From Phoronis australis (lineage: Eukaryota > Animalia > Phoronida): a DNA stretch of 64,000 bases. Positions 8,580-61,952 of the stretch are shown here, piece after piece. A program made the position numbers and the translations under genes. The notes beneath the pieces were generated by a model. That model was given only the letters and a program-made list of their open reading frames with translations. It made no database searches and was not told where the DNA came from. The stretch is from positions 983,147-1,047,146 of the forward strand of contig NMRA01000091.1 of assembly GCA_002633005.1 (NCBI GenBank). Direction: 5' to 3'. The first letter of the stretch is position 1, and each line of letters begins with the position of its first letter.

Positions 8580-8711
8580 GATATTGTGAAAATCGTCACG
8601 GTGACGAAACATGTTCTATTTTGGCGTTTGCGTGGTTTTGTGACCATTTTCCGGCATACATGATGTCGGAGTGTACTCAAGCTTGCGGTTTCTGCGACCA
8701 AAAAGACAAAG
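8580..8711 (+). CDS. ShK gene exon 1 (first seen): YCENRHGDETCSILAFAWFCDHFPAYMMSECTQACGFCDQKDK
   Basis: Acceptor ttttttgtctccgtttcag at 8579, donor G|gtaagt at 8712, 132 nt, phase 1-1, six Cys in ShK spacing. Missed by the ORF track. Confidence 0.9.
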
Positions 8712-9211
8712 GTAAGTGATAAGTACCTCAATCTACAATTGAGACGTGTTTAACGAATATAATTAGCAATTGAAAAACTAAACTATTGCTATGGCCTTAT
8801 TTGTCTTACACATCTCAAGGACGTACATGAACCCAGAGTTGATTTTACGTAAGAGCACGTCATGTATTTTGCATTCCTCACAGATGCCTGTGTTTGCATC
8901 TGTTTCGTTTATTTGTTCTTCCAATTTCAAGACTCATACAGCGATTTTATAATAGTTTCCAAATATAATAATTATTTCATCTAGCAGAGAGTTATTTCAC
9001 TCTTTTTCCCCGTTGCGTTGGGGGAAAACAATACATTGCCATTTTGCCAAATTATTTAGATTTCGCCAGTCCATGAAACTTGTAAAGTACACGACAAGTC
9101 TGTTTAAATATATGGCTGTTGCACGGTCTTACGAATTGCGTTAATCTCGAATTGTCTTCCATGTCAAATTTTGCAATCTACAACAAATCGACGCAGGTTT
9201 GTTCGTTACAG

Positions 9212-9563
9212 CAGTATGCAAGAATTTGTGGAATTCAACTGAGTGCGATGTGTACGCCAATTTCGGTTACTGTCGAACGTCCAAAGAATGGATGGTTGCC
9301 CATTGTCGCCAAAGTTGTGGTATTTGTGATCGCACAGACTCGTCCTGCACCAACCAGTACAAAGACGATGCTAAATGTTACGCGTACGCTCTGGGTGGGG
9401 AGTGCCTGGGTAATATCAANCACAGACTCTTCCTGCACCAACCAGTACAAAGACGATGCTAAATGTTACGCGTACGCTCTGGGTGGGGAGTGCCTGAGTA
9501 ATATCAAGTGGATGTACAAAAACTGTAGACGGGCTTGTGGCATATGTCAGGGTCTTCCTGGAG
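9212..9563 (+). CDS. ShK gene exon 2, two ShK domains: VCKNLWNSTECDVYANFGYCRTSKEWMVAHCRQSCGICDRTDSSCTNQYKDDAKCYAYALGGECL(G/S)NIKWMYKNCRRACGICQGLPG
   Basis: Acceptor ttacag at 9211 (tandem cagcag, so 9215 is an alternative start), donor G|gtatga at 9564. 9333-9419 is repeated at 9421-9507 across a single N; removing 88 nt gives 264 nt in frame. Confidence 0.88.
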
Positions 9564-10399
9564 GTATGAATATTGTACATGCAGCATTATTTTGCATTTG
9601 TATCACTGTTGCTTCTGAGATTTCATAATAGTGAGTGTTGATGGTTGTCAGTGAAGTGGAATTTGCTTCTTATTGGCTTATGTGATCGTGGTGCTGCAAC
9701 CAGGGGTAGATACATGTACGACTCATGTCTGATCTCTTCACGCGGCACAAACGTTACACTAATGTTTTGACGAAAAACATATATTTCCTTTTCATCATTC
9801 CTGGATATCTAATGTTCCACAACTGGTCATTATTTCATCTGTTCCTCATCACCACTGACACAACTTAGAGTAAAAACAAAAAAATGGAGACGAACGTGCT
9901 CAGCATGTTCTTCTCATGCTTGGAAATCAGCACCGAATACTTTACCTTCTCTAAATCAAGTCACGCCTTTGAGTAGTGGCTTAAAGACAAGAAGTTAAAT
10001 ACCACCAAAGTCACAAGTTCAAGGAGGGCTTTTTAGCAGCCTGCCTCGTACACATCCGGGTAATTCGAGGATGTTCCCTAACCAATAACGAAAGTTCGTG
10101 TTCGAGCGGCCACATTTTGCGTGCCCCTAAACTTACGTGAGTGTGAATTTTAAGGTACATGTACTTGAACCCTGAAATCCGCCATATTAACTATCTAACT
10201 TCCTTGAATTGGTAGTTTTCTGATTGTTGTGGAAATTTTTTCTCCATTTCACCAGTCGGAATAGCAGTTTAAAAGGCTTATGGGAAGATGACTTTTGAGG
10301 GCTTGGTTTTGGCAATTCCAGGCTGACGGAAGTACATCGTGATTGTACATTTAGTTGAATTTGAGACAATTGAATTTGCACTCATACATGTAAGAACTT

Positions 10400-12300
10400 C
10401 ACTGCAAGAATAACATAGATTAAAGTTTATTGAAAAGTTGGAGTCGACGAAATTTAAAGCCGTTTGGTAGAGTAACGGTAATTAAAACATTAACTATTTC
10501 TAAACTTAATTTTTTGTTGTCAAGTTTACCAAATCCACCAGTAAAAGTCTTGAATGAATTGAATACGACATTTTTCAAAATTGTGTGGCAGGCTCGTAGT
10601 GCTACAATTGAACGAACCACGGCCTGTTTAGCACTTGATCGTCGGGGTCTTCATATGATTAATATGCATACTTTCAGCAAAGCTTTAAAATTCGCTATGG
10701 CCCGTAGATATCTTGAAAGCCTTGCGTCTAAAAGTGGTGAATTAGTGTACTCACTCTACCCGTTCTTAAAGAATTTTGCTTCATTTGGAAATGACTTTGT
10801 TGAGTCGAAGTTAGCTCTAATTGGTAATTCCTACTGGCGCGAAGTATTTGGAAGTAAGATATCTTTCTAAGTCAAGAAAATAATTGTTGCAAGTAAGGAG
10901 GAATTTTTGAATCAACCTTTGTGGTTTAATAGTTAACTTGGCTATCGGATGGACAAGTGTTTTTTATAAGCCTTGGTTTGTAAAAGGCTTAAGATTTATT
11001 AGAGGTGTGTATACCTCTGATGCTGATTTCGTTAGTTTGAACCATATGAAAAATAAGTTCGATGTAAACACCAACTTTGCAGAATATAATGGTGAGTAGT
11101 ATAGTAAGTCATTTAGGACGCCTTACTATACTACTATGGTGATGTTTCTGTTCTAAGAAGGTTTCAAAAAAGTCTATTTTAAAGTAAATTTATAAGTGTT
11201 AAGAGTGACTCCATATAAAAACCAACAGGTAGAGTCTATACCCAAAATCACCGATTTTTTTGAAACTTAGCACATGAGTTTGGTTTGTTGAGATGTAGAA
11301 AGGCCTCACTTTTTAAGAATTTTCATTCATTATTTTTCTTTTTATGACCTGTACCTCCATTTTGCAACAAAATTGGGCGTCGAAGTAGGCATGTTTGAAT
11401 GCATTTTACTAGCATGTGTGGTAAGGACAAAACAAATGAATAATACCAATTGAAAGGGCAATGGCTGAATAATTTAATGGCATAACTTTCAAAATTCATT
11501 TTTAAATTTGTACTTTTTGAATTTGTGAGGCAAAAACGGCTATTTTTTAGGTTTTCACTGAAGCCATTTTCGGCCAAATTTGGCACTCTGTAGCAGCCAA
11601 AACGCACCTTTCCTGAAATTGACTTTATAATAATTTGTTTAGTCATTCCTATCCTGTTCATAATCTAAAATAAAAAATCTTGCCTCTAATGTAGTTTTTG
11701 CGTACGAAGCATTACACGAACTGCTCTTCNGTATACCTCTGATGCTGATTTCGTTAGTTTGAACCATATGAAAAATAAGTTCGATGTAAACACCAACTTT
11801 GCAGAAAATAATGGTGAGTAGTATAGTAAGTCATTTAGGACGCCCTACTATACTACTATGGCGATGTTTCTGTTCTAAGAAGGTTTCAAAAAAGTCTATT
11901 TTAAAGTAAATTTAAAAGTGTTAATGTCTCCGCTCCTGGCAGGACTCTAGTAATCACTCACTTACGGAAAGATTTGAAGGGTTGTAGACATAGTTGTTCA
12001 GTCTTTAATGACGTTAAGAAACCTCCTACATGTAAGTCAGAGTGTATATGGGAAATAGGGTTAGGAGATAATTTAGATTGGAAGAAAATATACGCATTGC
12101 CTTATGAAATTACAAAGGATCCTAACATCATATGGTTCCAATTTAAAATACTACTTAGGATTATTGCAACAAACACCTTTTTAGTCAAAATCCGTGTTCG
12201 GGAATCTAATTTATGTCCCTTTTGTACTGAAGGTCCAGAGACGCTGTCACACCTTTTTTGGGATCGCGTGTATTTTAAAAGTGCGCATTTGACGATATCG
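10400..12300 (+). mobile_element. 5'-truncated, degenerate Tx1/L1-like non-LTR retrotransposon (post-RT region and zf-RVT), interrupted at 11203
   Basis: SWSRRNLKPFGRVTVIKTLTISKLNFLLSSLPNPP...GLHMIN (10430-10870) and WKKIY...WFQFKILLRIIATN...CPFCTEGPETLSHLFW (11974-12309); stops and frameshifts present. Confidence 0.85.
11203..11729. mobile_element. Left end of a TTAA-inserted DNA transposon (same family as 21587-25073), cut by the N at 11730
   Basis: TTAA|GAGTGACTCCATATAAAAACCAACAGG...; near-identical to 21587-22105. Confidence 0.85.
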
Positions 12301-12449
12301 TTTGCGTAATAAAATAGCATAGCTCAATTTCTCGCTGCATATGGTTATCTTACTTGGTGACTCCATGGCCGCAAATTCTTGAAGCCTACACAACATGTTG
12401 GCAAAAAAAAAACACGGAGAACGTGTTAAACAGGAAAAACTGTAAGTAA

Positions 12450-12511
12450 CACAGACTCGAACTCTCGACCTGGCGGATAGAACGCGCGTGCTTTAGCACT
12501 ACACCACCTCG
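12450..12511 (-). other. tRNA-like (Pol III A/B box) fragment, probably a SINE head
   Basis: Minus strand GGTGGTGTAGTGCTAAAGCAC...AGGTCGAGAGTTCGAGTC; no complete acceptor stem seen. Confidence 0.4.
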
Positions 12512-13847
12512 ATTTAACTCCCAATGTGATACTATGAGACCTACTAGTTTATGGTCCAATGCGTTTGCGCGTGAAACCTACTTCTTTCTGCAATGCTTAT
12601 TACACGTTTTATATTTCGTGCAATCGGTTCCTAACAAATTCTTTGTATTTACAATAGTCTTCAAATGCCCAAAAGACCAAATCCGTTTTTCGTGTTGGCA
12701 ATAGTGACGGGATTGCTTTGGAAATTGTCTTAAGTTAAGGTTTGGCAAAGAGAGAATTTTGAGTTTCTGAGGGATTCATTAAGGCTTCGATTAAAAATCA
12801 CATCTTACCAGCAGCTTTTGCTTTTGATCGTCACTCAGGTTCAATTTTCTTTAAAAAATGAAGTAATTTGTTTTCATTCCACAGTGGAGCAGACGACGGA
12901 AACGGAGTGGTAGCGCGCAGCGCCACTGCCGGTCGCCTGGGAAATCGCGGGAGAGCCTATACTTAGCCATAGATCCGTTAAGATTGCGCCGTGTTCCGAT
13001 ATTGACACTTGAAATTGGATCTGACCCCCTCCCCCCAACTTTAAAACTGCACACATTTAAATCTTGTTTCATCCTTATAGTTTTAATTACTGGGATTAAT
13101 TAATAAACTCAACATTTCCCTACGCCCTTGCTGTTTTAATTTTTTGCGGCGGCCGAGGGGGGCCCTAATTCCGCATATGACTGCACAGATATCGAGCAGT
13201 TCGGAGAACGTATATGGTACTTGAAGACTCAAAATTTTAAAATTCGCTTCCCAGTTGCTTTTTTAACCTACCATTCGATGCCATTGTTCATGATGCATTA
13301 TGTCGGTCTCCGATTAGGCGCCTATCTATTTTCAGCTGGTGGCTCGACCAGCAACATGCATACCGCCACTCGGAGCAGAACCTAGCAGTTCGATTGGTCA
13401 AACATGATGCCTATCATATCGTGTGGGCAATTACATGTACATTTACTACAGACGCTACTAATCTCCTACATATCACATTGTGTTTCATGGCTGAATAATT
13501 GGCGCTTCCAAAGTTTCCAGTGGCGTAGGATAATCGATGCCTCCATTGATTTCGGGTGGATTTTTAATATTGCTCGCGAGACGAGAGAGAGAATAATGTC
13601 ATTAGAGAAACGCAATAGGTAAAGGAGGCACACTACCTACAACGCTGCTATTCCACTACTTCAAAATTTACTGGAATTTACTATCATATGCTCCATTACT
13701 TCCCGATGCCAAAATCCCGAAAAATGCGCATTGATTAAAATAGGAAGTACACCAAGTAAACAGGTGTTCAGTCCACTTTCCGAAAATTTCAGAATTATGG
13801 TCCTCTACCAACCCTCTAGATTCAAGTGTATTGCATACCAATTCCAG

Positions 13848-14108
13848 TGCTGTGTAAAAACGTCCACTCTTCTGAAGACGAATGTGTCCAAGACGCGCAT
13901 TATGGATTGTGTGGATCAAACAACAGATGGATGGTCATGAAATGCATGAAAGCTTGCCACCACTTCCTGTGTCATGATGGACCGGAAGGATGTGACAACA
14001 AATATGGTGACCAATGCACCGCGTGGGCACAATCGGGGCAATGTACTGTGAACCCGTTTTTTATGTTCTATTACTGTGAGAAAGCTTGTTCAGAGTATTT
14101 GTGTTCAG
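13848..14108 (+). CDS. ShK gene exon 3, two ShK domains: LCKNVHSSEDECVQDAHYGLCGSNNRWMVMKCMKACHHFLCHDGPEGCDNKYGDQCTAWAQSGQCTVNPFFMFYYCEKACSEYLCS
   Basis: Acceptor ccaattccag at 13847, donor G|gtgagt at 14109, 261 nt, phase 1-1; lies within ORF 13826..14179. Confidence 0.9.
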
Positions 14109-14643
14109 GTGAGTTTCAACGTTTGACATTTAACTTCTGGTTAAATCTCTCTTGGGCAAGCGAATGTGTTTATTTATAACTTCAAGGTGTTGATCAATTG
14201 ATCATCGCGTATTATAATAACGTCAACGATAGCGTATTGTTTTTTGGGTTGGCGAGTTTATCGAAAACTAGTGTAAGTTGGCGAGGTCCTTGAGGTCTCC
14301 ACGTAACCTATATCTCTATTCATCCACAAACTATGAAACATTTGACTGTACTAGAATTTTATGAGAGAAATTACCTTACGCGATGATAATCAATCTTGGA
14401 AAAAACTCATTCTGTAATTACTCTGCGCGTGTAAGCGCAGAGTACTGTTGTTCCTGGGTTTTCTTAAATNCGATAGCGTATTGTTTTTTGGGTTGGCGAG
14501 TTTATCGAAAACTAGTGTAAGTTGGCGAGGTCCTTGAGGTCTCCACCTAACCTATATCTCTATTCATCCACAAACTATGAAACATTTGACTGTACTAGAA
14601 TTTTATGAGAGAAATTACCTTACGCGAAAAAACTCATTCTGTA

Positions 14644-15966
14644 ATTACTCTGCGCGTGTAAGCGCAGAGTACTGTTGTTCCTGGGATTTCTTAAATTGTA
14701 TTCTTATTCTTATTCTTATTATTATTACTCTGCGCGTGTAAGCGCAGAGTACTGTTGTTCCTGGGTTTTCTTCAATTTTATTCTTATTCTTGTTCTGCTT
14801 CTTATTCTTCTTCCGACCAGCTTTGAGGCTTAGTATCTGCAAATTGGGTGCAGGTACGTTCTTTAACTTCAGCATATGATTTTTGACAGTACATAAATTT
14901 TGATTCCTTATATAATCATATTCCATATTGCACCGGAAGAGGTCGTTTGGTGCAAAGGTCATAAAAAATTCAAAATGCTACTCCTCCTTCAGTTTTAATG
15001 CTATCTTTTTCAAATTCGGTGCATAGGAATAAGTCAATCGGACAATTTAAAAAAAATAGTTTTCTGATTAATCAGGTCATCCAATCAGGTTAAACAGGTC
15101 AAAGGTGATTAGGTGCAAACTCAAATTTTGAGCTAGACACTTCAAATTCACAGGTCTGATTGGCACAAGTAATTCAATTCGGAATCCAAAGTTTCGGGTC
15201 ATTTAGTACTAACTTGGGGTCATTAGGTGCATTTTTCTTCTAAAATTTGACCTTTTCATTAACCAAGTATTCTAATGAGTCAACTGTGATTCTCATCATT
15301 GAACGCATTCTTCATGGTCTTTTCAATAATTCACGTAAAGACTTTTATAATGCACCAGATAGGGTCAATTAGTGCAAAGGTCATGTAACCTTCAAAATGT
15401 TATATCTCTTACGTTTTCCAAGGAATTCTTTTCAATTTGAGCACACTTGGGTACGTCAACATGCCTATTGAATACCCTACTTTACTTCGCAATAGGCTTA
15501 ACCAATCAGAAAAAAGGACAAAGGTCATTGAGTGCAAACTAAAATTTAGAGCTAGAGGCTTCAAAATTACATATCTTTTTACTAAGTGCGATTGAGATTG
15601 AATTCTAAATTTTCAGGTCATTTGGTGCACCCATGGGGTCATTAGGTGCATTTTTCTTCTGAAAGTTTGACCACTTCATTCATCTTGTATTCTAAAGTGC
15701 ATAAAGTGAAACATCTGTGATTATTAGCATTAACTACACTTTTAATCGAGTTAACAATTATTCCCTCATCGGGGCTCATAATGCACCGGAAGAGGTCAGT
15801 TAGTGGAAAGGTCATCAAAAATTACTATGTAATTTCTCCTACAATTTTAAAGAATTCCTTTTCATATTGGTAAACGGGTTGCTGTCAGTAACTTCCCATA
15901 ATAATTCCAGTAATACGCACGCGCAGAGTCCGTTATTGTCACCCCGTGACAATTATCATTCTAGTT
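14644..15966 (+). mobile_element. HINE-like element, copy 3, inserted at a T-rich site inside a LINE fragment
   Basis: Same terminal structure as copies 1 and 2; the flanks rejoin as LINE coding sequence (WKKTHSV | YQCISDVRLRWFQFRI). Confidence 0.72.
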
Positions 15967-16430
15967 TACCAATGTATTTCCGATGTTAGACTCAGATGGT
16001 TTCAATTCCGTATCAACCACAGGCTTATTGGTACAAACTCTTATTTTAAGAAAATAGGTGTTAATGGATCGTCTTTATGTTCTTTCTGTGAGCAACATGA
16101 AGAAACAATTCTACATTTGTATTGGAAATGTTCACATATTCAGAAGTTTTGGGGCTGTTTAAAAACTGGATGATAAATCAGTGCAATTTTCCTCTGCATT
16201 TAAATATGTCTTCCGCCTTGTTTGGAAACCCAGCCTGTAGATTAGAAAATTTAAATTTAATTCTTTTCTTAGCGAAAATTCATTCATATAGACAAAGACT
16301 ACAAAAGGCTAATCCCAATTTCCAGTCTTGTTTATCTGAGTTATGTGAGTACTAACTTGGAAAACATTATTTACAATGATAAATTGGATTTTGAGAGATT
16401 CCAGGAAACGTGGTCTTCTTTTTTGCATAA
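15967..16430 (+). mobile_element. 3' fragment of a second Tx1/L1-like LINE (zf-RVT region)
   Basis: LRWFQFRINHRLIGTNSYFKKIG...CSFCEQHEETILHLYWKCSHIQKFW, then a frameshifted LNLILFLAKIHSYR. Confidence 0.82.
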
Positions 16431-17413
16431 CTAGCTTTTATAGGGTCCCATAATGTAATTTGTTTGATGTACAGCACACATCACGCATTTTTATGCGACC
16501 GGTCGGCTACAAATTAGCCGACCGGCAGCCGGCCGCAGTGCCGACTCATAAGGCGACCCACCAGAGGACTCTACAGCCGACCTTAAATGCCGACAGGCCA
16601 TCAGCCGACCCTCTAGTCGGCTGCTATTTTTAGGCTAGAGTAACAGTTGTGTTAAAGGGTGTCAGGCTGATACCGCTTTGCGTGCAGATGTATATTCGTC
16701 TCGGCACATGCAGGGTCAAATAAATTAACCTAGCTATATGATGTTTCCATTACATAAGTTCACATCGGTTGTGCTCATTGACACCACTAATTCGAAGGTT
16801 GGAGGCAAGCGGTCATATTGTACATTGGATTATGAACAATGCAACACGTTTTGGATAACAAAACGTTAAAGTTTTCTTTACATTTGATCTTTTGGCTCAA
16901 GAAGTTAATAAGTTGCTTTAGATTAGCTGCTTCCCAGTCAATACAACGTCGTTGTCATTTTGTAAACGCAGCTACTTTTTACAGTCTTCGCCAACACTTG
17001 TTTTTGTTTGTGTTACGCCGAACTGCATCTTTTTGCGCTTTCAAAATTCCTCACGCGATATGATTATGTGTGCTAAGCGCATTTTGTGAACAGGAAATAT
17101 TATTGATGCATCTCCAAAAGTGTTATTTTCAGTGTCAGCAAAAAGTGTCACAGGAGATCATGGGATGAAGTTAAATGGTTACAGGGAGTCGTATTAACTG
17201 CTAGTGTTTAGCGACAAGAACGGTTGATTGCAAATTGTTGTGGCAAGATGTATAACCTAGTCTGGCCGAATTCTGTAGATTCCTGGCTTGTTTGATTAAT
17301 TTATTGAAGCTACTTTACAGAAAATGTGGCGTTCGCAGAATAAACCTTCAGGCAGTCATGTATTTTGATCAAACACATCTAAATAAACCGTCTGTGCAAC
17401 CTTCTTCTTACAG

Positions 17414-17554
17414 AAACGGCTCCATATGATCCATGTGTTAATAAACTATCAGACAAAGAATGTAACGAGGAAATGGTTGCAACTTGTGGAAGTAAAATTT
17501 CGACCAATGCTCAATGTTACCGAACTTGCAGCGGATGTGGTAGAGATGAAATAG
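17414..17554 (+). CDS. ShK gene exon 4: ETAPYDPCVNKLSDKECNEEMVATCGSKISTNAQCYRTCSGCGRDEI
   Basis: Acceptor cttcttcttacag at 17413, donor G|gtacta at 17555, 141 nt, phase 1-1, six Cys. Confidence 0.85.
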   Translation, partial: KRLHMIHVLINYQTKNVTRKWLQLVEVKFRPMLNVTELAADVVEMK

Positions 17555-17870: not shown

Positions 17871-18017
17871 CGGACAAGACACATGATGATTGCATCAACC
17901 TAGATGCCGATGACATATGCTGGGACCTGGCAGTGAAGGGTCGGTGTGAGCTTTCAGTAGAAGCAAAGAGGCGTTGTCGACGATCCTGTACTGGATGTGG
18001 TGGTGATCAGGATACAG
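17871..18017 (+). CDS. ShK gene exon 5: ADKTHDDCINLDADDICWDLAVKGRCELSVEAKRRCRRSCTGCGGDQDT
   Basis: Acceptor aactttgtag at 17870, donor G|gtaaca at 18018, 147 nt, phase 1-1, six Cys; resembles exon 4. Confidence 0.87.
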
Positions 18018-26147: not shown

Positions 26148-26304
26148 GTAAAGATTGCCTAGATACTTCACCGGCATGTGGTGCCAATCATATGCTCGGA
26201 CTGTGTGGACTAGAGCCCGAGTCGATGAAAAAGGATTGTAAGAAGACATGTGGATTTTGCACGCCAACCAAATACAAACAAGCTTTACATGATGCAAATA
26301 CAAG
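26148..26304 (+). CDS. ShK gene exon 6: GKDCLDTSPACGANHMLGLCGLEPESMKKDCKKTCGFCTPTKYKQALHDANTR
   Basis: Acceptor gtcctggtag at 26147, donor AG|gtttgt at 26305 (phase 2), 157 nt; canonical CLD...CKKTCGFC. Confidence 0.86.
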
Positions 26305-27166: not shown

Positions 27167-27303
27167 ATTCTGCAAAGATGACATCGACGTTTCCCTCTAT
27201 GGTGAGAGAACTTGTCAAAAGTATTTTGATCAGGGGGAGTGTGCTAAAAACGAATGGGTACGCAACAACTGCAAAAGAACGTGCGGGAGATGTCTGGACA
27301 TAG
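27167..27303 (+). CDS. ShK gene exon 7: FCKDDIDVSLYGERTCQKYFDQGECAKNEWVRNNCKRTCGRCLDI
   Basis: Acceptor tttccttcctgatacag at 27166 in phase 2, matching the phase-2 donor of exon 6 (AG|A = Arg); donor G|gtaagt at 27304; 137 nt. Confidence 0.9.
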
Positions 27304-29017: not shown

Positions 29018-29200
29018 CACCTCCCGCGCTAGCCAGGAGTCCAGTAATGTACTCGGCTGTTACATGCAGTAATGTTGAAAATATTCACGTGACGAATGAG
29101 GGTGACGATCCGCACTTCGAGTGTCGCTTGTGGGCATCGAGCGGGCATTGCACAGGTGCTGTTGCAGGCCTTTGTAGAAGAACGTGCGAATGTGAAAAAT
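29018..29200 (+). CDS. ShK gene exon 8 (type A1): APPALARSPVMYSAVTCSNVENIHVTNEGDDPHFECRLWASSGHCTGAVAGLCRRTCECEK
   Basis: Acceptor ttatcttatag at 29017, donor T|gtaagt at 29201, 183 nt. Confidence 0.88.
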
Positions 29201-31049: not shown

Positions 31050-31181
31050 GCTACGACGTCGACGAAAGACATTGTCGTGCCAAAGCTGAGAAGGGAGGTT
31101 GTTCCCCAAAGTCACAGGATGATAAGACCTGGATGAATGTTCACTGCCGAAAGACGTGTGGACTTTGCAGAAGTAATGGAG
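31050..31181 (+). CDS. ShK gene exon 9 (type B1): (C)YDVDERHCRAKAEKGGCSPKSQDDKTWMNVHCRKTCGLCRSNG
   Basis: Acceptor tttcaatgtcag at 31049, donor G|gttcgt at 31182, 132 nt; first Cys is the split codon T|GC. Confidence 0.88.
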
Positions 31182-31750: not shown

Positions 31751-31948
31751 TTCCCCAGTATGCCCCAGCCAGAGCTCCAGTAAAGATCAATACTTCATCA
31801 CCGGGTACCGATTGCAGCACTGCTACAAATAATCATGTCTCGAAAGGACTAGATCCCGACTCTGAGTGCAAAATTTGGGCCGCAGATGGACATTGTTCGA
31901 CATCTTACGTTAAGGAAGAATGCAAGAAAACCTGTGAATGCTGCAAAT
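31751..31948 (+). CDS. ShK gene exon 10 (type A2): VPQYAPARAPVKINTSSPGTDCSTATNNHVSKGLDPDSECKIWAADGHCSTSYVKEECKKTCECCK
   Basis: Acceptor cttctcacag at 31750, donor T|gtaaga at 31949, 198 nt; paralogous to exon 8. Missed by the ORF track. Confidence 0.9.
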
Positions 31949-34880: not shown

Positions 34881-34884
34881 CTTG

Positions 34885-37704: not shown

Positions 37705-37836
37705 GTTTTGATATCGGCGATAAGATCTGTAAACTTCGGGCTGAAGATGGAATGTGCTCAGTGGTGGAAAGGGGAAACAAAGCGTGGATGGAACACAATT
37801 GCGCTAAGACATGCCAATTCTGTAAAGTTAACGCAG
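37705..37836 (+). CDS. ShK gene exon 11 (type B2): (C)FDIGDKICKLRAEDGMCSVVERGNKAWMEHNCAKTCQFCKVNA
   Basis: Acceptor tttttgtaag at 37704, donor G|gtttgt at 37837, 132 nt; split codon T|GT. Missed by the ORF track. Confidence 0.88.
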
Positions 37837-39711: not shown

Positions 39712-39921
39712 ACTGTCTGCCCAAACCATCAAATACACGACGGTTGGACAACGAGACTCCAATGACGTCCGAGTTTTGCAGCAAAGCTGTAAACAAATAT
39801 AAGACGCCCGACAAACCCGATGATCCCGATTACAAATGTCGATTATGGACTGCTATCGGCCATTGTATTCCAGGAACTTCTGTTTGGACTGGTTGCCAGA
39901 AGACATGTCAGTGTGATAAAT
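39712..39921 (+). CDS. ShK gene exon 12 (type A3): DCLPKPSNTRRLDNETPMTSEFCSKAVNKYKTPDKPDDPDYKCRLWTAIGHCIPGTSVWTGCQKTCQCDK
   Basis: Acceptor ctgtttttcag at 39711, donor T|gtaagc at 39922, 210 nt. Confidence 0.9.
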
Positions 39922-52686: not shown

Positions 52687-53137
52687 AGCGATGACGTCAG
52701 AAAGAGTGAAAATAGAATACTTAAATGAGCACGCGCGATAGTCCCATGTTCAACAAACCACATTGTACTGTACTAAAACGCTACGAAAAATAAGACACAT
52801 AATTTCCATAAAAATGATATCTTAATTCAGTAAAATTTTTCTCTCATCTATCTTCAGTTTGAATGCGGGTATCGTGTCGTCAGGATGTTTGACTTGAGAA
52901 TTATACTCGGGAACCCAATGGTCGTCCGTCTAAGCATAAAACCGACTTATTGTGATACTCACCCAATTATTCCACTTCAAAGTTATGCTCTGCAGAGAAC
53001 TTGATTTGTCTCTCACTAATCCATAGTATTAGTTGATTCAAAAGTTTTCCTTTACTTATGCCCCTCGGGCGATAATTCTCCAAAATCCACTCGGGCTCTA
53101 GATGGGGGGATAACGGCTTTACCATGTAATAATCTAT

Positions 53138-53520
53138 ATTTACCGTATTAATCGGTCTATCTCCACATCATCTCTTACCTCGCTGAGAGGTGTCGTGGTA
53201 ACCTGTGAGGCAGGTGAGAAACGTCGCAGCAACGTCAGTGCTACTTTTGCAAAGTGTTTACCGTTATGGTGTGATGGAGTGTCATTTCAGCTTGTGCAAA
53301 AAATAAAGCAGCGAGGAAAGCGGGTGTATCTTTTTTTTCGATTTTGGAAAATGAAAAGTAAGCCTTTAATACCAAGTATGCGGCAATGAAATATGTCTGT
53401 GTCTGTGGCCGGCATTTCGTCGACAGTGATTTCCAAAACAGCTCATGCCAGGGCAGAAACAGAGACCCAGGCTGAAGTCAGATGCTGTGTCTAGTGTACG
53501 TTTGCATTCAGCAGGCAAGA
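53138..53520 (+). mobile_element. Degenerate THAP-containing transposon 5' end, homologous to 3690-4075 (inverted)
   Basis: Nucleotide match of gagaggtgtcg...ggtgagaaa to the reverse complement of 3961-4030; peptide KAGVSFF...VCGRHFVDSDF...RLKSDAV. Confidence 0.75.
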
Positions 53521-53999
53521 GAAAAAAGGAATGCCGATCGGTTTTGATCAGTTTTTGATTACGGAGCATTCTAGTTGGCCACGGAAACTTAAAAATACAA
53601 TGATCAAATCAAGGCATGATAAAATAGCGTTTTATGTAACCTATTTGATGACTCACTCGTTCGTCAGGCTTCTGTTTGGCCCTCTGGTGTAGAATGTTTT
53701 TGCCAGTTCTTTCCCCCAGTCATAAAAAACGTTGTGAACACACCTCTGTTGCAGCGCCAAATCGGGATAGCCCGCGAGACACGTCTGCGCTTATCCAACA
53801 GGGCTCGCCGACACAAAAATCGCCAGGTCGCAGTTTGCAACCTAGATTAAATGTCAGGTCGCATTTTCAAAATCCAGCTTGCATTCATAAATGCCAGGTC
53901 TTAAAATTTAATTCGTTCATGCTGATGCGGCGTTACTGTTTCTCATGAATGCCATTGCAAGGCCCTACGTGAAATTTGAATCAGCGCTCTCTAACTGAC

Positions 54000-54116
54000 C
54001 ATGGGCGGCGCACTTTTTTCAGTGTTACCCATCACATGGTGTATCTATAGACGGTGCACCACAGAGGGACTGATGTGGCTTTAGATCCCCACTTTTTCAG
54101 TGCTGCGCCGCCGATG
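54000..54116. mobile_element. 117-bp MITE with 5-bp TSD CTGAC
   Basis: Termini CATGGGCGGCGCA / TGCGCCGCCGATG; CTGAC at 53995-53999 and 54117-54121. Confidence 0.8.
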
Positions 54117-55602
54117 CTGACACGTGCATTCGAGTAACTAAGTTTGCGATGTGAAAAAAATGCCTGTTGAAAAAGTATAATCAATTTTTCTAGGTCTGAC
54201 CTGATATATACTGTAGTTGTCATCAAGTTCGCTAAAGATCAAAACCAACTCGCAGTGTAAACTCTCTATTTTTTGTTTTCATCCCAGAAAAACTAGAACC
54301 GATGCCCTAACCGAATGACATATTTGGATGCGCGGGGACAATGCAGGGCAAATTTCACTACAAGACGTAGTACTTATGCTGTTTGCTTACTCAACAACTA
54401 ATTTTCCGTAACAATAATACATGCAGCTTTGAAATAATTCCCGACTCCGTGCGGGTTTCCATCAGGAAATTCGAGTTTGCTCCTCAATATACCTTCAGGT
54501 CAGTCATAAAGCGGCGAGCATGTCACCAGTGTTAACTTTCTTTCGTAGGTACATATATAAAACAAGGCCGGGGTTCGGATTTTACATATTGAGAAAAAAC
54601 GTTTCTTGAAATCTGAATTTGTTGACACGTAAAATTACTGTGACTCAGCTACGTAGACTGCTGACAATTCCAAACCACGCGCGGTCGTTTGTAGTGCGCA
54701 ACATGCACGGGATAATCTCGAATAACTCGAGGAAGATAGTTCATAAAATTAAGGCTCGTTTCCAATAGCTGGTTTTCCCCAGAACGCATAGCAATCGCTA
54801 AAGTTTGGCAAACCAAAATACATTGAGAAACTGGAAGCCATAGGGCTACTTTATATTCCATCTGAGGTCAACAAATTTTAAAATGTTTTGAGTAATGTTG
54901 AAGCCACAAGCTCTATGGCCCATCTGGAAAGAAATACGAGACGTAGCGTGTGAATAATGAAATTGAAGAAAAAGAAAAACTGGACAAATCAATGTACGCT
55001 TGGTTTGATACAGTACTAAAACAAGTGCGCGTCCTCCGTTTGTAAATGATAGAGTTACTGCAACAGTTTCGCGCCACTTCAAGTTTCTTAGGTGACTCTT
55101 CTTTTAGGTTTGTTCCATTGCGTCAATCATGTTTTAGATTCGTCCTCACGGACTTTCTTTAGGGCTATAAAATGCTGTGCACTAATAGTTTTGGCGAGCT
55201 GTCTGGTGTGTGAAACCCGCTCCAGCTCCAAGTTCTCGATCATGGTAAGTGACGTGTGGTAAGTGTCCTATTTTCTACTAAAGTCTAAAGTTGTTCAATA
55301 GTTTTCGACAAATTCTTTTCCGTCACCCCTGCTTGTAATTTATGACAGCAATAATAACATAATCAACTCTCCTTTAATCAACGCTTCTTTAATACTCAAA
55401 CTTCAAAACATAACAACTGAGCGCCTATCTGTCAGGTCGACACCGGCGTCCATTCACAACACGCAAAACACAACGCTGCATACGACCCTACAGCCACACA
55501 TGCTGTGACTTGCCCTTGTTTTGATGGTACTTCGGCCCCTGTCGTTGTGCTCCATATAGATTTCGCTTATGCATGTTTATCTAACTGTTGTTTGCATCTC
55601 AG

Positions 55603-55725
55603 GTTTCGACGTGGACGAGGCTAAGTGCATCTCCATGGCCAAAACGTGGGGCTGTACGTCTGTAAACAAGGGATGGATGAAAAAAAACTGCGCTAAAACA
55701 TGCAAAACCTGTGGAAGCAACAAGG
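55603..55725 (+). CDS. ShK gene exon 13 (type B3): (C)FDVDEAKCISMAKTWGCTSVNKGWMKKNCAKTCKTCGSNK
   Basis: Acceptor tttgcatctcag at 55602, donor G|gtaagt at 55726, 123 nt; split codon T|GT across a 15.7-kb intron. Confidence 0.88.
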
Positions 55726-56871
55726 GTAAGTTTACATTGCAACAAGGACTGGGCTACAATATTTTCACCACGCGATTGTGTACGGGTATCGACTTCACGT
55801 ATGGTTAGACTTTTATCTCCAGGCATTTGGTATTTAAAAAAGTGTCCAAACGTGAATTTGTACATTTTTGCAATAGAGCACTTACATGCCTTGTGCTTAG
55901 AGGAACAGTCCATATCAAAACACCAAAAACAATACCGCCAGTCATTCAACGTTTAAATCAGAACATCAGCAAATATTATATGACGTCGACATTAGGAGAT
56001 TGCGTGGAACACAGGTCTAAACGCCGTACTTTCGTTTGGGAGACCGGGCTCAGATTCGACCTTAATGTAAAAAAGCTTGAAAAAACGTGATGAATTATGT
56101 AGATTATTAATTATGCTTTTTTGGAAAACCAGGTGCTTTTAATTACACTTGCCATGTTTTTTTTCCGATTCCACTTCTAAGTATTAGTAACATGCAACGC
56201 TCACATATTTAAAGATTCTCCATAAATTTCTACTTCGGAGCATTAAAATCCGTGTTTTCATGGCTTACTAAATACTAAGCATATATTTTTGCAGCATCAG
56301 CCCTTATTACATATACCCACGTGTAGAAAATTCCTAAACACGCTTTGTTATTTTTTATTTCACTGTAAACGAGGACTTGTTTGGTGAAATTTCAATGTCA
56401 ATTTTCATAGTCTTCATCCACGGTGCCATTTCTAGTTTTACAATTATTCACATCGTGTTATAAAAAGTAGTTTCATACTTTTGTCAGCATTTTCCCCAAC
56501 CTAAATTTCAGACAAAAGTAGGACATCCAATTTATCAGCATATATTCTTCCATGGCCATAGGATATACATGTATAACAGCGTGGTGTTGTAACGCGACGG
56601 TACCAAATGCGAACTACATGTACCTACGACTGAAGGATCATTTATGCATACCGTAAAAAGCGTGGAAAATCTTATCGAAAGGCGTCAGTAGTCGAGAACA
56701 CATATGTACAAGGCACCTGATGGACAGACGAGTAGGTTTTCACGGAGAAAGTAAACGCATGAAAAGTATTTTATATTGTTATCATTTCTCATATACTTAC
56801 TATAGGAAGCTATTATAATGATTTATTTTGCACCAAACCTTATATACGGTAACATTTTCTGACTTCGACAG

Positions 56872-57099
56872 AGAACGTTGCGATGGCTCCAATGCAGATG
56901 CCCATCAGATCAGAGTCTAAAGAGCAACAGGCAACTGTGGCTACGGAGACTTACGATAATTGCTTCCACGTGTCTAACATACTCCGACTTCAAAATTCCT
57001 ACAACCCCGACTATCACTGCAAAAAGCGGGCGGCAAATGGTGGTTGTGATACGAGATTCATGCAGAAGAAATGCGCCAAGACATGTACCTGCGAGACGT
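56872..57099 (+). CDS. ShK gene exon 14 (type A4): ENVAMAPMQMPIRSESKEQQATVATETYDNCFHVSNILRLQNSYNPDYHCKKRAANGGCDTRFMQKKCAKTCTCET
   Basis: Acceptor ttttctgacttcgacag at 56871, donor T|gtaagt at 57100, 228 nt. Confidence 0.88.
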
Positions 57100-57919
57100 G
57101 TAAGTTTTGTCATTGAGTTACCTTAAGACGAAACACAGTGTATCAGAAATGTCCGCTGCGTATGCCTCAGCGAACAGTTTTGGATACCTCTGTTTCCATC
57201 AGCTTGCAACACAGTACTTTTGAAATAAACTAGATAAGCTTATACGAAGAACACGCACGACCCTTCGCCAAACTGGGACATATACCTTTGCAGCAGTTAT
57301 TATTAACTGAAGTTTCATAGTAATGAAACGGCGTTTCTTGTGTCGGAATGGGAGAGCATGGTTGCTTGAGGCACTTTTTCACCCATAGCCCACGTGACGA
57401 TGGGTTGTGAATCTGGGGTATAGTGTACTTATCTCCTAACGATACTGAAGACCAATGACATACAAGGTTATTATATTCAAATCAAGCCAAACATTTTTCT
57501 TGATGTGGTTAAAAAGATCTATCGAGTGGCCCAGATCACCTACACGTGGAAGATAGTTCAACAATCCGCCATGGAGAGTAGGATTCACAGTTTCTTTCAC
57601 GTTTGGGTATCGTGTATGAGTGTTAAAAGTAGCTGTACATACATAGCATCTGCAATAAATCTCTCGTACTTTGTATGCCTGGCACGAATCATAAAAAGCT
57701 AACGATATTATACAATGACTTTTTAAATGCATGATAATTAAATTAATAACTAACAAATGGGACAGATAAACGATCCATGGCTCAAGTCACCATATACCAA
57801 ATGGCTTAACTGTTCTTAACTAAAACAATTTTGTTTATAATCTGAGCTGTCACTACAGTTATTGTTTTACGTGGTTTGTCTCAACTTTGGTCGTCGTTAG
57901 CGTCTGTTTAGAAGTCGGT

Positions 57920-58640
57920 CACCATCCCGCACGGATCTGCGTACCCGGATGTATCGTATCACGCCCACTTTGGATATACCATTACATCCCTTTTCGTGGG
58001 ATGACACACATCACCGTGCTTGGCGCGTCCGTGAGAAGAACGCAGTGTTACCCGTCTAAGTAACGTACAAGGCAGCGGAGGATTAGTGGGTGTGTGACAC
58101 GTCTTTTCTGTCGTCGGATTAGAAGATTTATGCACGAGAAGGTAATAAGAATCCTGCAAAACAACGGTTGTCGCTGTCGATTGCTGCCGGTGTCCCGAAA
58201 TGGGCGTTTTTGAATCGAAATACCTCCCGAGGTGTTCTCTCTACAGTGCCTCGAGGCCCTTCAACTACATTCACCCGTGCCTCTGAACGTACATGTACCC
58301 TCAGACCGTGCATATCCGGGAAGTAGCAGTTATTCACGCGTCCTCTCGTAATGTCGCCAGCTCAGAGGCGTTAAGCAGCCCTGCAGCGATCTTTAAAATT
58401 GGGTCAGTGAAAACAGGCCCAGTTCGTTACACAATGAGGAGGACAGTTGTCTAGTGAACAGGCAAGTGAGCTCAACTTTGATAAGTTTATTGTAGAGCTA
58501 ACTAAAGTATCGGGGATAGATGTATTTTAAGGTACCATGTGAGTAGGTAGAATGTGAGTTGTGCGGGTACTCAAGTCACCATCCAGTGCGACTGCGTCTC
58601 GGGACACTCGGGCAAGTGGGCAGTTGTTCCTCCGTCCATT
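57920..58640 (+). pseudogene. Heavily decayed copy of the THAP/Kolobok 5' region at 34073-34850
   Basis: Colinear nucleotide matches such as gaagaacgcag(c/t)gttacccgtc, tcacccgtgcctc(c/t)gaacgtac, aactttgataagtttattgt and ggcaagtggg. Confidence 0.8.
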
Positions 58641-58699
58641 TGATGTGTTTCAGTCAGTGATGAACGTCGGGGAAGTATTTTTTACAACATGACGTAATA

Positions 58700-59400
58700 A
58701 TACTAGCAAACGGTTAGGTTCACCGGCCAGTTCTCTGGACGACGAACTGACCTCCTCAGTGGGTAAGTGGACCACCAGTTTTCAATCCCAGTATTCAACA
58801 TCATTTCAGAGCTGCTTACAAGCTTTAGGCCAGAAACAACACCACCACTGGGTAAATCACTGCTTGTTCCTGGGATTGCAGGCTCTGGACTACATTCAGA
58901 GGAACTGGTGACAGTAGCAGTATGTCCTCAAATCACTGTAGAGGCCACAGTTCGTGAGGTTTCTTGCTTCAAAATTGCTCTTCTCGGATTTGGCGACGGA
59001 GCACTGTCGGTAATCAACTGCTACGGTTTTGTTTCGCAGGAACCTTCATCACTTCTACGTAGACATCTCTTTTGTGATCCAATGGCAGAAAATGCTTCCA
59101 CGCACTCGGTAATTCTCCATTTCTTTGCACGTTGTGTGAACAGGTAACAGTGCGTTTTTCACACGAATGAGCCAAGTACGGCGGAGTTTGTCATCCATCG
59201 GAAAGTAATGTAATAGAATACCCAGAGCACGTGTTACATGTAGTCTACAAGGTGTACATCCCGGTACACAGCACCCGTTCGGTATTTTCACTAACCCATA
59301 AAACAACGCAAACGACTTACCACACCCGTCGGTAATGACTGGCTCCACAACAAACGCAGTCGGACTAGATAAAGCCCAGATCCTAAGGTTATAAAACCCT
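58700..59400 (-). pseudogene. Inverted THAP/Kolobok 5' region of the same family
   Basis: ORF 59055..59348: GCCVPGCT...TRALGILLHYFPMDDKLRRTWLIRVKNALLPVH, clearly paralogous to the ORF at 34073. Confidence 0.82.
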
Positions 59401-60178
59401 TAAATGTCGCTTCCTCAACAGGGCATGACTAATTAATTGACCTATCGCCAGTATTTTGAGTGACGGCTTAACTGACCATTTAGTACGCAGCATTATTGGC
59501 ACACCTTCGTTTCCAAGCCGCCATTTTACCCGACAAACAACATGTTGCCGGGTAAAACTTATTGTCTGGTACTCTATACTACGCAAGGGGGGCGGAGCTT
59601 GCGATTGGTCAATTATATGGGAAGCCGTAACTAACTGAAAAATATGCCCGGGATCGATAATTAACGAGTCGTACTTTTACTAAAAAATGACATGACAAGT
59701 TTGCTTTCTCTTTTAATCGTTTAGTGAAGCAATGACTCTGTGTAGTAAAGATTGGTGACGAGTCTGACATTATACATGTAGATGTAGCAACACCAGTAGA
59801 TCAAGGAAAAATTAACATGCATTCTTGGTATTGACTTCCTGATTCTAGTATAGACCAACTGGCTATTTAGTCACGGGCTTGGCGTCGGAAATTTGTCGAA
59901 TGTCGATCTTTGGTAGTTGATTTTGAAAATTCATTTACCTTTGTAATGTTCCGTGAGGTACAGTAATAAAACACATACCATTGAAACAGTTTCATAACAA
60001 ACACGTAGACTCAAGTTGTGGACGCCTGATGTTTCTGATAGACAATTGTTTAAACGCTTGGACGCTAATAAGTTTCAGGACAAGTGTCTGGGTCGTTGTT
60101 CTTGACCAGAACATTGTCAAAATTCACGAAGGTTTTCACTTCATGCCACTTGTTGCATCGAGGTTTTACTTCATTCTG

Positions 60179-60287
60179 ATGGAGCCGGGCGACCTGTCTT
60201 ATGGAGCCGGGCGACCTGTCTTATGGAGCTGGGCGACCTGTCTTATGGAGACGGGCGACCTGTCTTATGAGCCGGGCGACCTGTCTT
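60179..60287. repeat. 22-bp tandem repeat x5
   Basis: ATGGAGCCGGGCGACCTGTCTT repeated head-to-tail with no spacers. Confidence 0.92.
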
Positions 60288-61808
60288 AGGCCTTCTTAAT
60301 CCAATCACGCAACGTTAATTAGTAGTTGGTGTTTGTATAAGCTGTTAGCAATAGCAAATTTGTAACGAATATTTAAACGTTTAAGTCTCGTCAAGTACGT
60401 ACTTTCCGAAGTTCAGTCGGTATTGAATACTTCCCCCGTTTCACGTATCTAATATACGAAAGTAGCTTTGACAATTTATTAAATCTGAGCTAACACCATT
60501 GTATTTGGATTTGCAACTCTTTAAAGTGACATAGAGCGTGATAGACAAAAGCATGATTATTCAAAGTAATCCTCTGCCACTGAAACAACGTGCACAAGGT
60601 AGTTTAACGATTTGTTAAGACAATTTTGATTAAATGTTCATTACAAAACATGTCATTTTGCTTTAAAATATCAAAATGAAAACGATTTGTTCACTGCTTG
60701 TCACTTCATCGATTTTTTTCCCAAACGACAAAGCACCTCTCCTTAGTTTGTATGGTAAAACACAGGCGTATATCATTTCACTCACATGGAAAACGTGACA
60801 CTTTTTTGTTTGATATGACCAAAGTAATGGTGATTCCAAGCAGCATCGAGTCTGATTTATAAGTTATTGGTGAGGGTGGAGAATTCGAAAATTTTATTAG
60901 GATGACAGAATTTTTTTTTTTTGCAAAGGCCGTAGAGAACATATGGGCCACGTTACATTTTTGCCTTCGGGCTTCCATGTTTAAATAAGATTGTCCGTAA
61001 TTGAGTTACCCAATCACAGTTTTTTTACACGAGTGACGCTGGGCGCTCTCCATCAGTCATAATGTATTTGCAAAAACCTGGCTTTTACTGGTAACTGGCT
61101 GATGACGACTGCTGGAAACCGTCGTATTGGTAACGTTGGGTTTGGGTACAAATCTCGGTGAAAAAAATCGTCTATGATATAAAAGTGCTAAGAAGTCAGT
61201 CGTTTTTCTCTGATAGCGAACGGGATTTTAGGTAGACTGGCTTGTGATTATTTCACGTACCCGCAGGTTTGCTAGTTGACATTGATTATTTCTAATCTTT
61301 CCATTTGCTTTCACGAACAATTACAACAACTTAACATCTTTTACCACGAACAAAGGAAGGTACTGTTCCTGTTATTCTTAATACCACTTGATTATTGTGG
61401 ATTGTCTAAGAAAAATCAACCTCAGAATTCATACAATATTTTAACAAAGCCAAACTGAAGCTGAACTTCCAAGAAACATTGAGTTATGCATACTTGAACG
61501 ATCTTTTAAGATACATCCGCAATCAAATCCAACGTTCTGAACATACGTGAAATCATCTGTTTTCACAATATTTCACTTCGGGTGACAAAGCTGAACGGAA
61601 ATATGAAAGTCAACATAGTGATGTAGTAAATAAAGCATGGCGGCCCTAAAGCGTATAACACGTAGCCGAAGCTATTGTGGCTTGATGCCTGATTATTCAG
61701 TACAGATAGCGGCTGGAGACGAAAGCACAAGTTCTAAACATAAATTCTTGAACGTTTCAACGTGACATTGAGCAAAAAGTTGATGCTCGGTGTATTTCTG
61801 ATTTAAAG

Positions 61809-61952
61809 GTTTTGATGTTGTTGAGAGCGAATGTATTAAAGCAAGAGGGGAGGGCCGCTGTGATACTTCAGACCCCAATTACGGATGGATGAAAAGACAT
61901 TGTGCACTAACCTGCGGACTGTGTCACCCCAAGGCTTTGTTCCTACTTCCAG
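61809..61952 (+). CDS. ShK gene exon 15 (type B4): (C)FDVVESECIKARGEGRCDTSDPNYGWMKRHCALTCGLCHPKALFLLP
   Basis: Acceptor tttctgatttaaag at 61808, donor G|gtaagc at 61953, 144 nt; split codon T|GT. The gene continues past this exon. Confidence 0.87.

What the first reader, a model, noticed from the sequence alone, without database searches (positions are those of the whole stretch)
8580..61952. Hidden gene of more than 53 kb encoding a string of at least 17 different ShK toxin-like domains
Seen: 15 short exons splice into about 863 stop-free codons made only of six-Cys domains and short linkers; the domains differ strongly outside the Cys scaffold. Several exons (1, 4, 5, 6, 7, 10, 11, 15) do not appear in the ORF track. 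Known: ShK/ShKT domains are three-disulfide modules found in cnidarian K+ channel toxins and appended to astacins, peroxidases, tyrosinases and CAP proteins. Inference: a very long, diversified ShK array that could be a toxin/defence polyprotein or a multivalent extracellular binder. A catalytic domain outside the window cannot be excluded.
Basis: partly seen in the sequence, partly recalled or inferred. Interest (0 to 1): 0.85.

Follow-up and report, generated by a model that had tools for sequence, protein, structure and literature searches.

The report
Spliced gene with seventeen ShK domains
An animal gene, spliced from at least 17 exons and strongly expressed in two of three RNA samples, encodes a chain of 17 different small cysteine-rich ShK domains that likely serves as the binding arm of a larger secreted enzyme rather than as a string of toxins.

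Summary
Fifteen + strand exons give 863 stop-free codons and 17 ShK-type domains, once an 88-base assembly duplicate is set aside. RNA reads support 10 of the 14 introns; four were not tested. Reads also run into further exons beyond both ends of the window, so the start, the stop and any partner domain are unseen. Expression is about 200 RPKM in two runs and near zero in a third. The domains share only 22% of their non-Cys residues. The last eight form a two-exon 'double-ShK' cassette repeated four times, whose Cys pattern occurs in none of the 150 best library relatives. A toxin polyprotein is unlikely: no domain has the Lys-Tyr dyad, one of 16 linkers has a dibasic site, and four linkers are two residues long. 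Library proteins with this domain subtype nearly always carry a partner domain, usually astacin or a SUEL lectin; one has astacin plus 16 ShK domains. Best reading: the multivalent targeting arm of a secreted astacin-ShK protease (0.5; the partner is inferred, not seen). A new variant of a known kind; moderate interest.

The parts
8580..8711 (+). Exon E1, one ShK domain (Asn-type subtype). It is spliced to an upstream exon that is not in the window.
   Evidence: Pfam ShK 19.3 bits; joint to E2 in 132/102 reads; upstream overhang in 138/99 reads, which has no match in the window
9212..9563 (+). Exon E2, two ShK domains; 264 nt in the transcript
   Evidence: Pfam 25.3 and 24.5 bits; joint to E3 in 210/201 reads
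9333..9420 (.). 88-base assembly duplicate ending in a single N; not part of the transcript
   Evidence: Tandem period 88; skipped in 84/83 reads
13848..14108 (+). Exon E3, two ShK domains with C-x3-C-x4-C ends
   Evidence: No Pfam hit; BLAST 42-48 bits to library ShK domains; Atlas ShK clusters at 0.91 but with low recognition; joint to E4 in 281/201 reads
17414..17554 (+). Exon E4, one divergent ShK domain
   Evidence: 6 Cys, gaps 8-7-9-3-2; joint to E5 in 263/214 reads
17871..18017 (+). Exon E5, one divergent ShK domain
   Evidence: 6 Cys; joint to E6 in 235/178 reads
26148..26304 (+). Exon E6, one ShK domain; followed by the only phase-2 intron
   Evidence: Pfam 27.7 bits; joint to E7 in 331/237 reads, two alleles summed
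27167..27303 (+). Exon E7, one ShK domain with a long C1-C2 loop
   Evidence: Pfam 23.7 bits; read overhangs match 29018 onward
29018..29200 (+). Exon E8, A-type domain of cassette 1 (Pro-containing linker, long C1-C2 loop, C-x3-C-x-C end); ends in a split Cys codon
   Evidence: Start fixed by RNA overhang; end predicted from the donor site and homology
31050..31181 (+). Exon E9, B-type domain of cassette 1
   Evidence: Pfam 27.4 bits; both ends predicted only
31751..31948 (+). Exon E10, A-type domain of cassette 2, with one extra Cys just before the next domain
   Evidence: Pfam 21.8 bits; ends predicted only
37705..37836 (+). Exon E11, B-type domain of cassette 2
   Evidence: Pfam 23.3 bits; ends predicted only
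39712..39921 (+). Exon E12, A-type domain of cassette 3, with one extra Cys at the head of its linker
   Evidence: 3' end matched by the overhang of 461/316 reads; 5' end predicted
55603..55725 (+). Exon E13, B-type domain of cassette 3, after a 15.7-kb intron
   Evidence: Pfam 24.0 bits; joint to E14 in 222/228 reads
56872..57099 (+). Exon E14, A-type domain of cassette 4
   Evidence: Model pLDDT 73; all 9 fold matches are ShK or CRISP domains; joint to E15 in 399/280 reads
61809..61952 (+). Exon E15, B-type domain of cassette 4. It is spliced to a downstream exon that is not in the window.
   Evidence: Pfam 23.3 bits; downstream overhang in 409/259 reads, which has no match in the window

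Best explanation
This is the middle of one spliced, sample-specifically expressed animal gene whose 17 diverged ShK domains likely form an uncleaved, disulfide-locked, multivalent binding arm behind a catalytic domain that lies outside the window, most likely a secreted astacin (M12A) zinc protease. Shown: the exons, 10 of 14 junctions, continuation beyond both ends, expression, and the ShK Cys pattern. Predicted: the ShK fold, for one domain. Inferred: secretion; three disulfides per domain plus a fourth that staples domain E11; growth of the array by duplication of phase-1 exons, with the last eight domains from a two-exon A/B cassette copied four times; a role in tethering the enzyme to mucus, matrix or cell-surface targets, each domain adding a different weak contact. 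The astacin partner rests on the company that this domain subtype keeps, not on sequence seen here.
For: Reads continue in frame into unseen exons at both ends. The last 11 codons of the upstream exon hold no Cys, whereas 14 of the 15 array exons have a Cys within their last 9 codons, so that exon probably differs in kind. Of the 13 library proteins with >=10 ShK-type cores (top 150 of 4581 hits), 11 carry another domain and 7 carry astacin. The seven domains of E1-E5 fit an Asn-type motif; 34 of 150 library proteins have >=2 such domains: 14 astacin, 13 SUEL lectin, 1 VWA, 1 trypsin, 1 with the SUEL-family tail, 4 others. Both proteins with >=10 domains and >=2 Asn-type domains are astacins (P0002 with 16, P0005 with 11). 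Astacins supply 80 of the 170 ten-best BLAST hits per domain, against 32 of 150 proteins. The top named hit of both word searches is a nemertean astacin-ShK protein. Molluscan astacins with 3-9 C-terminal ShK domains and gland-specific expression are described (PMC6409789 passages). No dyad and almost no cleavage motifs. The Cys count is 104 = 17x6 + 2, and the two extra Cys flank the same domain.
Against: No astacin or other catalytic sequence lies in the window (masked tblastn hit only ShK exons), so the partner is unseen. SUEL-lectin proteins are as frequent as astacins among Asn-type carriers (13 v 14), though none has more than 8 domains. Only 5 of the 14 Asn-type astacins have 13 or more Cys-free residues before their first detected ShK domain, as this gene must. 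93 of the 150 library hits matched none of the partner domains I probed, many of them fragments. The Asn-type motif was drawn up after seeing these domains. No library protein is a close relative (best 57% over 28 residues), and the A/B cassette has no counterpart (0 of 150), so the analogy is distant. A signal peptide was not seen.
Confidence: 0.5

Rival explanations
1. Same targeting-arm role, but the partner outside the window is something other than astacin: a SUEL-type lectin, trypsin, VWA, papain-type, CAP, peroxidase or tyrosinase domain.
For: 13 of 34 Asn-type carriers are SUEL-ShK proteins; trypsin, VWA, papain-type and EGF/LDLa partners also occur in long arrays. The A-type domain has CRISP-like C-x3-C-x-C spacing and its model matches CRISP domains.
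Against: In the SUEL proteins printed the lectin's last Cys lies about two residues before the first ShK domain; here at least 13 residues are Cys-free. The downstream 9 codons do not resemble the SUEL-family tail: 177 of 879 unrelated linkers and 674 of 1000 shuffles scored as high. SUEL arrays reach only 8 domains.
Confidence: 0.2
2. An ShK-only secreted or membrane-anchored protein: a long flexible array that binds many ligands, cross-links mucus or matrix, or buffers oxidative stress with its disulfides.
For: All 863 visible codons are ShK domains and linkers. ShK-only arrays exist: P0001 with 45 near-identical domains and Thr-rich spacers, P0006 with 11. Nematode multi-ShK proteins act as mucins without toxin function (PMC7333891 passages) or as oxidative-stress buffers (10.64898/2026.05.03.722560, abstract only).
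Against: Only 2 of 13 long library arrays lack another domain. The linkers here are not mucin-like Thr/Ser tracts.
Confidence: 0.2
3. A toxin or defence polyprotein, cut into many single ShK peptides that act on ion channels.
For: Strong sample-specific expression, high domain diversity, and several basic domains (net charge up to +5). One domain has Lys-Trp and two have Arg plus an aromatic residue at the dyad position. MMP23 acts on Kv channels without the dyad (PMC6409789 and PMC10828956 passages).
Against: Lys-Tyr dyad in 0 of 17 domains; a dibasic pair in 1 of 16 linkers, no RxxR or amidation motif; four 2-residue linkers and a likely inter-linker disulfide. The best PDB sequence matches are ShK domains of metalloproteases, ahead of the anemone toxins.
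Confidence: 0.07
4. Two or more neighbouring genes that only look like one, with the break in the untested stretch E8-E12.
For: Four junctions were not covered by reads, and short reads cannot show one molecule end to end.
Against: All four have AG/GT ends and matching phase, and two need the split Cys codon seen at the read-supported E12-E13 and E14-E15 junctions. Depth is similar on both sides (about 340-490x in X1 for E2 onward) and both sides are silent in X3. None of these exons holds a stop.
Confidence: 0.03

Closest known systems
Astacin (MEROPS M12A)-ShK proteins of molluscs and other invertebrates, e.g. Cumia CreM12-ShK and Pinctada Pf-ALMP (PMC6409789, PMC10828956; passages); library proteins P0002, P0005, P0151
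   Same: Long run of diverged ShK domains with short linkers; Asn-type domain subtype in P0002 and P0005; strong expression in some samples only; no Lys-Tyr dyad in the louse astacins of PMC10828956.
   Different: The astacin domain is not seen here. At least 17 domains, against at most 9 in the passages read and 16 in P0002. The A/B double-domain cassette is found in none of the 150 library hits.
SUEL-lectin-ShK proteins (unnamed library proteins P0018, P0020, P0023, P0027, P0032, P0035 and others)
   Same: All 13 carry >=2 Asn-type ShK domains.
   Different: At most 8 domains; the lectin abuts the first ShK domain; their C-terminal domain is not matched by the downstream 9 codons here.
Sea anemone type 1 K+ channel toxins (ShK, BgK)
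   Same: Six-Cys pattern and predicted fold.
   Different: Those are single 35-37-residue peptides with a Lys-Tyr dyad (PMC6409789 introduction). Here 17 domains sit in one chain, with no such dyad and almost no processing motifs.
CRISP ion-channel-regulator domain (Tpx-1/CRISP2, pseudechetoxin)
   Same: A-type domains end in C-x3-C-x-C; weak Pfam Crisp hit for E14 (E 0.026); CRISP rows among the fold matches.
   Different: CRISPs have one such domain after a CAP domain (PMC5793123 passage: two-domain proteins; CAP from PMC6409789). Here there are four, each with a 17-19-residue C1-C2 loop and followed after 2 residues by another ShK domain.
ShK mucins and ShK-only arrays (Toxocara Tc-MUC, C. 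elegans MUL-1, library P0001)
   Same: Many ShK domains in one chain; no dyad in Tc-MUC (PMC7333891 passage).
   Different: No Thr/Ser-rich tracts here; the domains are 22% identical, against 64% in P0001.

Membership tests
ShK/ShKT domain (PF01549) | Six Cys with ShK spacing | tested here: met
   17 of 17 domains, four with C1 on a split codon
ShK/ShKT domain (PF01549) | Profile score above the Pfam gathering cut-off | tested here: inconclusive
   9 of 17 above cut-off, 2 below, 6 without a hit; those 6 give BLAST scores of 32-48 bits to library ShK domains
ShK/ShKT domain (PF01549) | ShK fold (short helices held by three disulfides) | tested here: met
   One A-type domain modelled at pLDDT 73; 9 of 9 chains with Z>=2 among 48161 are ShK or CRISP domains, best Z 4.0, rmsd 1.3 over 35 residues. 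Z is low because the domain is small; only 1 of 17 domains was modelled.
ShK/ShKT domain (PF01549) | Disulfide connectivity C1-C6, C2-C4, C3-C5 | not testable with these tools
   Indirect only: two extra Cys flank C1 and C6 of domain E11
Sea anemone type 1 K+ channel toxins | Lys-Tyr dyad | tested here: not met
   0 of 17; one Lys-Trp, two Arg-aromatic. The dyad position relative to C4 is recalled.
Sea anemone type 1 K+ channel toxins | Release as single-domain peptides through processing sites | tested here: not met
   Dibasic pair in 1 of 16 linkers; no RxxR or G-K/R-K/R; four 2-residue linkers. Monobasic processing is not excluded.
Sea anemone type 1 K+ channel toxins | Kv channel block | not testable with these tools
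   Needs electrophysiology
Astacin-ShK (M12A) | Astacin domain with HExxHxxGxxH | not testable with these tools
   Absent from the window; the 5' exons lie outside it and no genome is held
Astacin-ShK (M12A) | Signal peptide and pro-region | not testable with these tools
   5' end outside the window
Astacin-ShK (M12A) | Run of ShK domains of the subtype seen in these proteins | tested here: met
   7 Asn-type domains; astacins are the commonest best matches. The subtype is shared with SUEL proteins.
SUEL-lectin-ShK proteins | Lectin end directly before the first ShK domain | tested here: not met
   At least 13 Cys-free residues precede the first Cys of E1; holds only if E1 is the first domain
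SUEL-lectin-ShK proteins | Conserved ~150-residue C-terminal domain | tested here: inconclusive
   Only 9 downstream codons are visible and they score no better than controls; E15 need not be the last domain
ShK mucins (Tc-MUC type, P0001) | Thr/Ser/Pro-rich tracts between domains | tested here: not met
   Linkers of 2-34 residues without such tracts; unseen exons could hold one

The most novel reading that the evidence does not exclude
A lineage-specific recognition array with no enzyme: 17 or more ShK domains, each diverged to a different surface, built partly from a new rigid 'double-ShK' module (a CRISP-like long-loop domain fused two residues before a second domain whose first Cys codon is split by the intron). 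One chain would carry a whole repertoire of binding specificities into a secretion.
Probability: 0.2. Interest if true: 0.65.

Novelty: new variant of a known kind. Interest (0 to 1): 0.4.

Why it matters
What ShK domains do when appended to enzymes is largely open (PMC10828956 calls the functional information scarce; PMC5793123 lists it as an open question; passages read). This gene has the longest strongly diverged array among the 150 best library hits and a repeated two-exon module not seen in them, so it offers 17 natural variants of one scaffold for testing the targeting-arm idea. It is also a clear case of array growth by symmetric phase-1 exon duplication, with a compensating pair of extra cysteines. 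It is an extreme of a known architecture, not a new kind of system.

Tried and rejected
1) The gene's own full-length protein is in neither library: a word search with E3 found nothing; profile searches gave 7 and 4 distant hits; the HMMER scan of 1.84 billion representatives gave a best identity of 57% over 28 residues. 2) No genome is held, so the 5' and 3' exons could not be read. Source names and taxa for P0001-P0150 could not be obtained; P0151 is the only hit named to an organism. 3) Hidden extra exons: a profile of the 17 domains found nothing else in six frames (next best 7.0 bits against 34-53), and the E13 overhang points straight to E12, so the 15.7-kb intron is skipped whole. 4) A by-eye resemblance of the E15 tail and downstream codons to the SUEL-family C-terminal domain failed both tests: HMMER reported no score and pairwise scores were no better than controls. 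5) A single-sequence fold of E14 was useless (pLDDT 45); Foldseek gave no hit at E<=0.001. 6) The domain tree is mostly unresolved (1 of 14 branches well supported); A-type domains group at 89/94, B-type do not, so the order of duplications cannot be stated. 7) No RNA holder was listed by the index; the raw-read lays supplied the evidence. 8) Earlier scan findings: none nearby and none that bear on this gene. 9) Eight literature searches listed no paper on an array of this length or on the A/B module; I read only the listings, plus passages of seven papers, and no supplements, which could list longer arrays.
Full report
Observation. The window is 31-46% GC, rich in repeats, with several single-N assembly overlaps. 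A six-frame scan found Cys-rich frames on the + strand. An ShK-type Cys pattern occurs 17 times on + and never on -; 50 local shuffles gave 0.06 on average. Pfam ShK matched 11 of the 17 domains at E<=0.1, 9 above the gathering score, and missed E3a, E3b, E4, E5, E8 and E12. This needs the 88-nt duplicate at 9333-9420 to be left out, which the reads confirm. Thirteen of the 14 internal introns are phase 1, as are the two flanking ones; E6-E7 is phase 2.

RNA evidence. Three raw RNA runs and one contig set of the same species label were laid on 44120-64000 and 8400-28399, about 40 of the 64 kb. In X1 and X2, stranded reads cover the ten exons tested at about 215-490x and 140-380x, roughly 210 and 180 RPKM by my estimate from bin means; X3 gives about 0.15 although it covers the window's repeats. 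Eight introns are seen as joints in 102-399 reads each, and two more through overhangs that match the next or previous exon. Four junctions between E8 and E12 were not covered. Both outputs hid weaker joints (38 and 14 rows), so minor exon skipping is not excluded. Overhangs before E1 (138/99 reads) and after E15 (409/259 reads) match nothing in the window: the gene has at least 17 exons, spans more than 64 kb, and neither end is visible. The tissues are not named, so I can say sample-specific, not gland-specific.

Anatomy. Domain cores share 22% of their non-Cys residues, 47% at most. E1-E7 hold nine fairly canonical domains with linkers of 6-16 residues; the seven in E1-E5 share an Asn two places after the first Cys. 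E8-E15 are four copies of a two-exon cassette. The A exon has a 19-34-residue linker before it, a 17-19-residue C1-C2 loop and a CRISP-like C-x3-C-x-C end; two residues later comes the first Cys of the B domain, whose codon is split by the intron in all four copies. A-type domains group in a tree (89/94); B-type do not, and the tree is otherwise unresolved. The total is 104 Cys, 17x6 plus two. The two extras lie two residues before C1 and six residues after C6 of the same domain, E11, and in no other cassette. Since C1 and C6 are bonded in the ShK fold (PMC6409789), they likely form a fourth disulfide (inference). A model of one A-type domain (pLDDT 73) matches only ShK and CRISP domains, 9 of 9 rows, best Z 4.0 and rmsd 1.3 over 35 residues; Foldseek was not significant.

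Relatives. The protein itself is not in the libraries searched. A profile of the 17 domains hit 4581 representatives, of which I examined the best 150; I scanned 65 with Pfam and all 150 with partner-domain probes. Thirteen have 10 or more domains: seven astacins, one VWA, one EGF/LDLa, two papain-type or ephrin-receptor-like, and two with ShK only. Only P0001 has more domains than this gene (45), and those are near-copies (64%) with Thr-rich spacers; P0002 is an astacin with 16. Of 34 proteins with two or more Asn-type domains, 14 are astacins and 13 SUEL lectins; both that also have 10 or more domains are astacins. I defined that motif after seeing the window's domains, so only its distribution in the library is a test. 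The A/B Cys pattern occurs in 0 of 150. With ShK parts masked, no relative matched the window outside the ShK exons. The only hit named to an organism is a nemertean astacin-ShK protein; I infer an invertebrate animal and go no further.

Mechanism. The array most likely stays in one piece. No domain has Lys-Tyr at the dyad position (one Lys-Trp, two Arg-aromatic; position recalled), one of 16 linkers has a dibasic pair, and the two-residue linkers leave little room for a protease. Lack of the dyad does not rule out channel activity, as MMP23 shows (PMC6409789 and PMC10828956, passages). The upstream exon ends in 11 Cys-free codons, unlike 14 of 15 array exons, so E1 is probably the first ShK domain and something else precedes it. 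By association that is most likely astacin (0.5), another partner (0.2) or only a leader (0.2). Against astacin: it is unseen, SUEL proteins are as common among the subtype, and only 5 of 14 Asn-type astacins have so long a Cys-free stretch before their first detected domain. [quoted passage not shown] The ligands are unknown. A resemblance of the downstream codons to the tail of the SUEL family failed its controls.

Literature seen. PMC6409789: abstract, introduction and passages; it reports at most 9 ShK domains in astacins. 10.64898/2026.05.03.722560: abstract and outline. 10.1101/645952 (trypsin-linked ShK domains each on one exon, read as exon shuffling), PMC9132205, PMC5793123, PMC10828956 and PMC7333891: passages only. 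No supplements were read. Eight searches listed nothing on an array this long or on the A/B module; most subscription papers are not in the library.

Verdict. A real, expressed, unusually long and diverse ShK array with an apparently lineage-specific double-domain cassette. Multi-ShK accessory arms are a known architecture, so this is a new variant of a known kind. Interest 0.4.

Noticed in passing
window 9212 and 9215: Tandem (NAGNAG) acceptor at E2: a minor form three bases shorter in 9 and 6 reads, against 132 and 102.
   Followed up: no
window 27170 and 27301: Reads split into two forms near both ends of E7 (about 60:40 and 50:50 in X1 and X2), likely heterozygous coding variants.
   Followed up: no
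window 2230-2660, 5204-5485, 9333-9507, 11009-11924, 14227-14696, 40945-41243: Near-identical duplicates beside single N bases: scaffolding overlaps that inflate the assembly; one falls inside exon E2.
   Followed up: partly
window 57856-59399 and 34005-34839: Related repeat copies (68-71% identity) in both orientations, with a THAP-domain remnant on the - strand at 59058-59399 (E 2e-4) and reads that switch strand at 58474-58730: likely a DNA transposon or fold-back element.
   Followed up: partly
window 10424-12309: Decayed LINE-like retrotransposon pieces in intron 2 (zf-RVT, E 7e-4); a 529-base part recurs inverted at 21583-22110 with 95% identity.
   Followed up: partly
window 4206-7644 and 14644-15967: Several copies of a 1.3-kb repeat that opens with 56-80-base tandem subunits; the copy near 14680 draws many read starts, most in X3.
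   Followed up: no
window 18386-18885: Ten tandem copies of a 50-base unit in intron 5, with almost no reads.
   Followed up: no
window 48098-48760: A pile of reads of the opposite orientation to the gene (about 200x in X1) with many mismatches and loose ends: probably a repeat transcribed elsewhere.
   Followed up: no
library proteins P0018, P0020, P0023, P0025, P0027, P0032, P0035, P0039, P0041, P0042, P0054, P0070: A family of SUEL lectin plus up to 8 ShK domains plus a conserved ~150-residue C-terminal domain without a Pfam match; one literature search listed nothing specific on it.
   Followed up: partly
library protein P0001: A 2578-residue protein of about 45 near-identical, very basic ShK domains with Thr-rich spacers: an ShK mucin-like polymer.
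   Followed up: no
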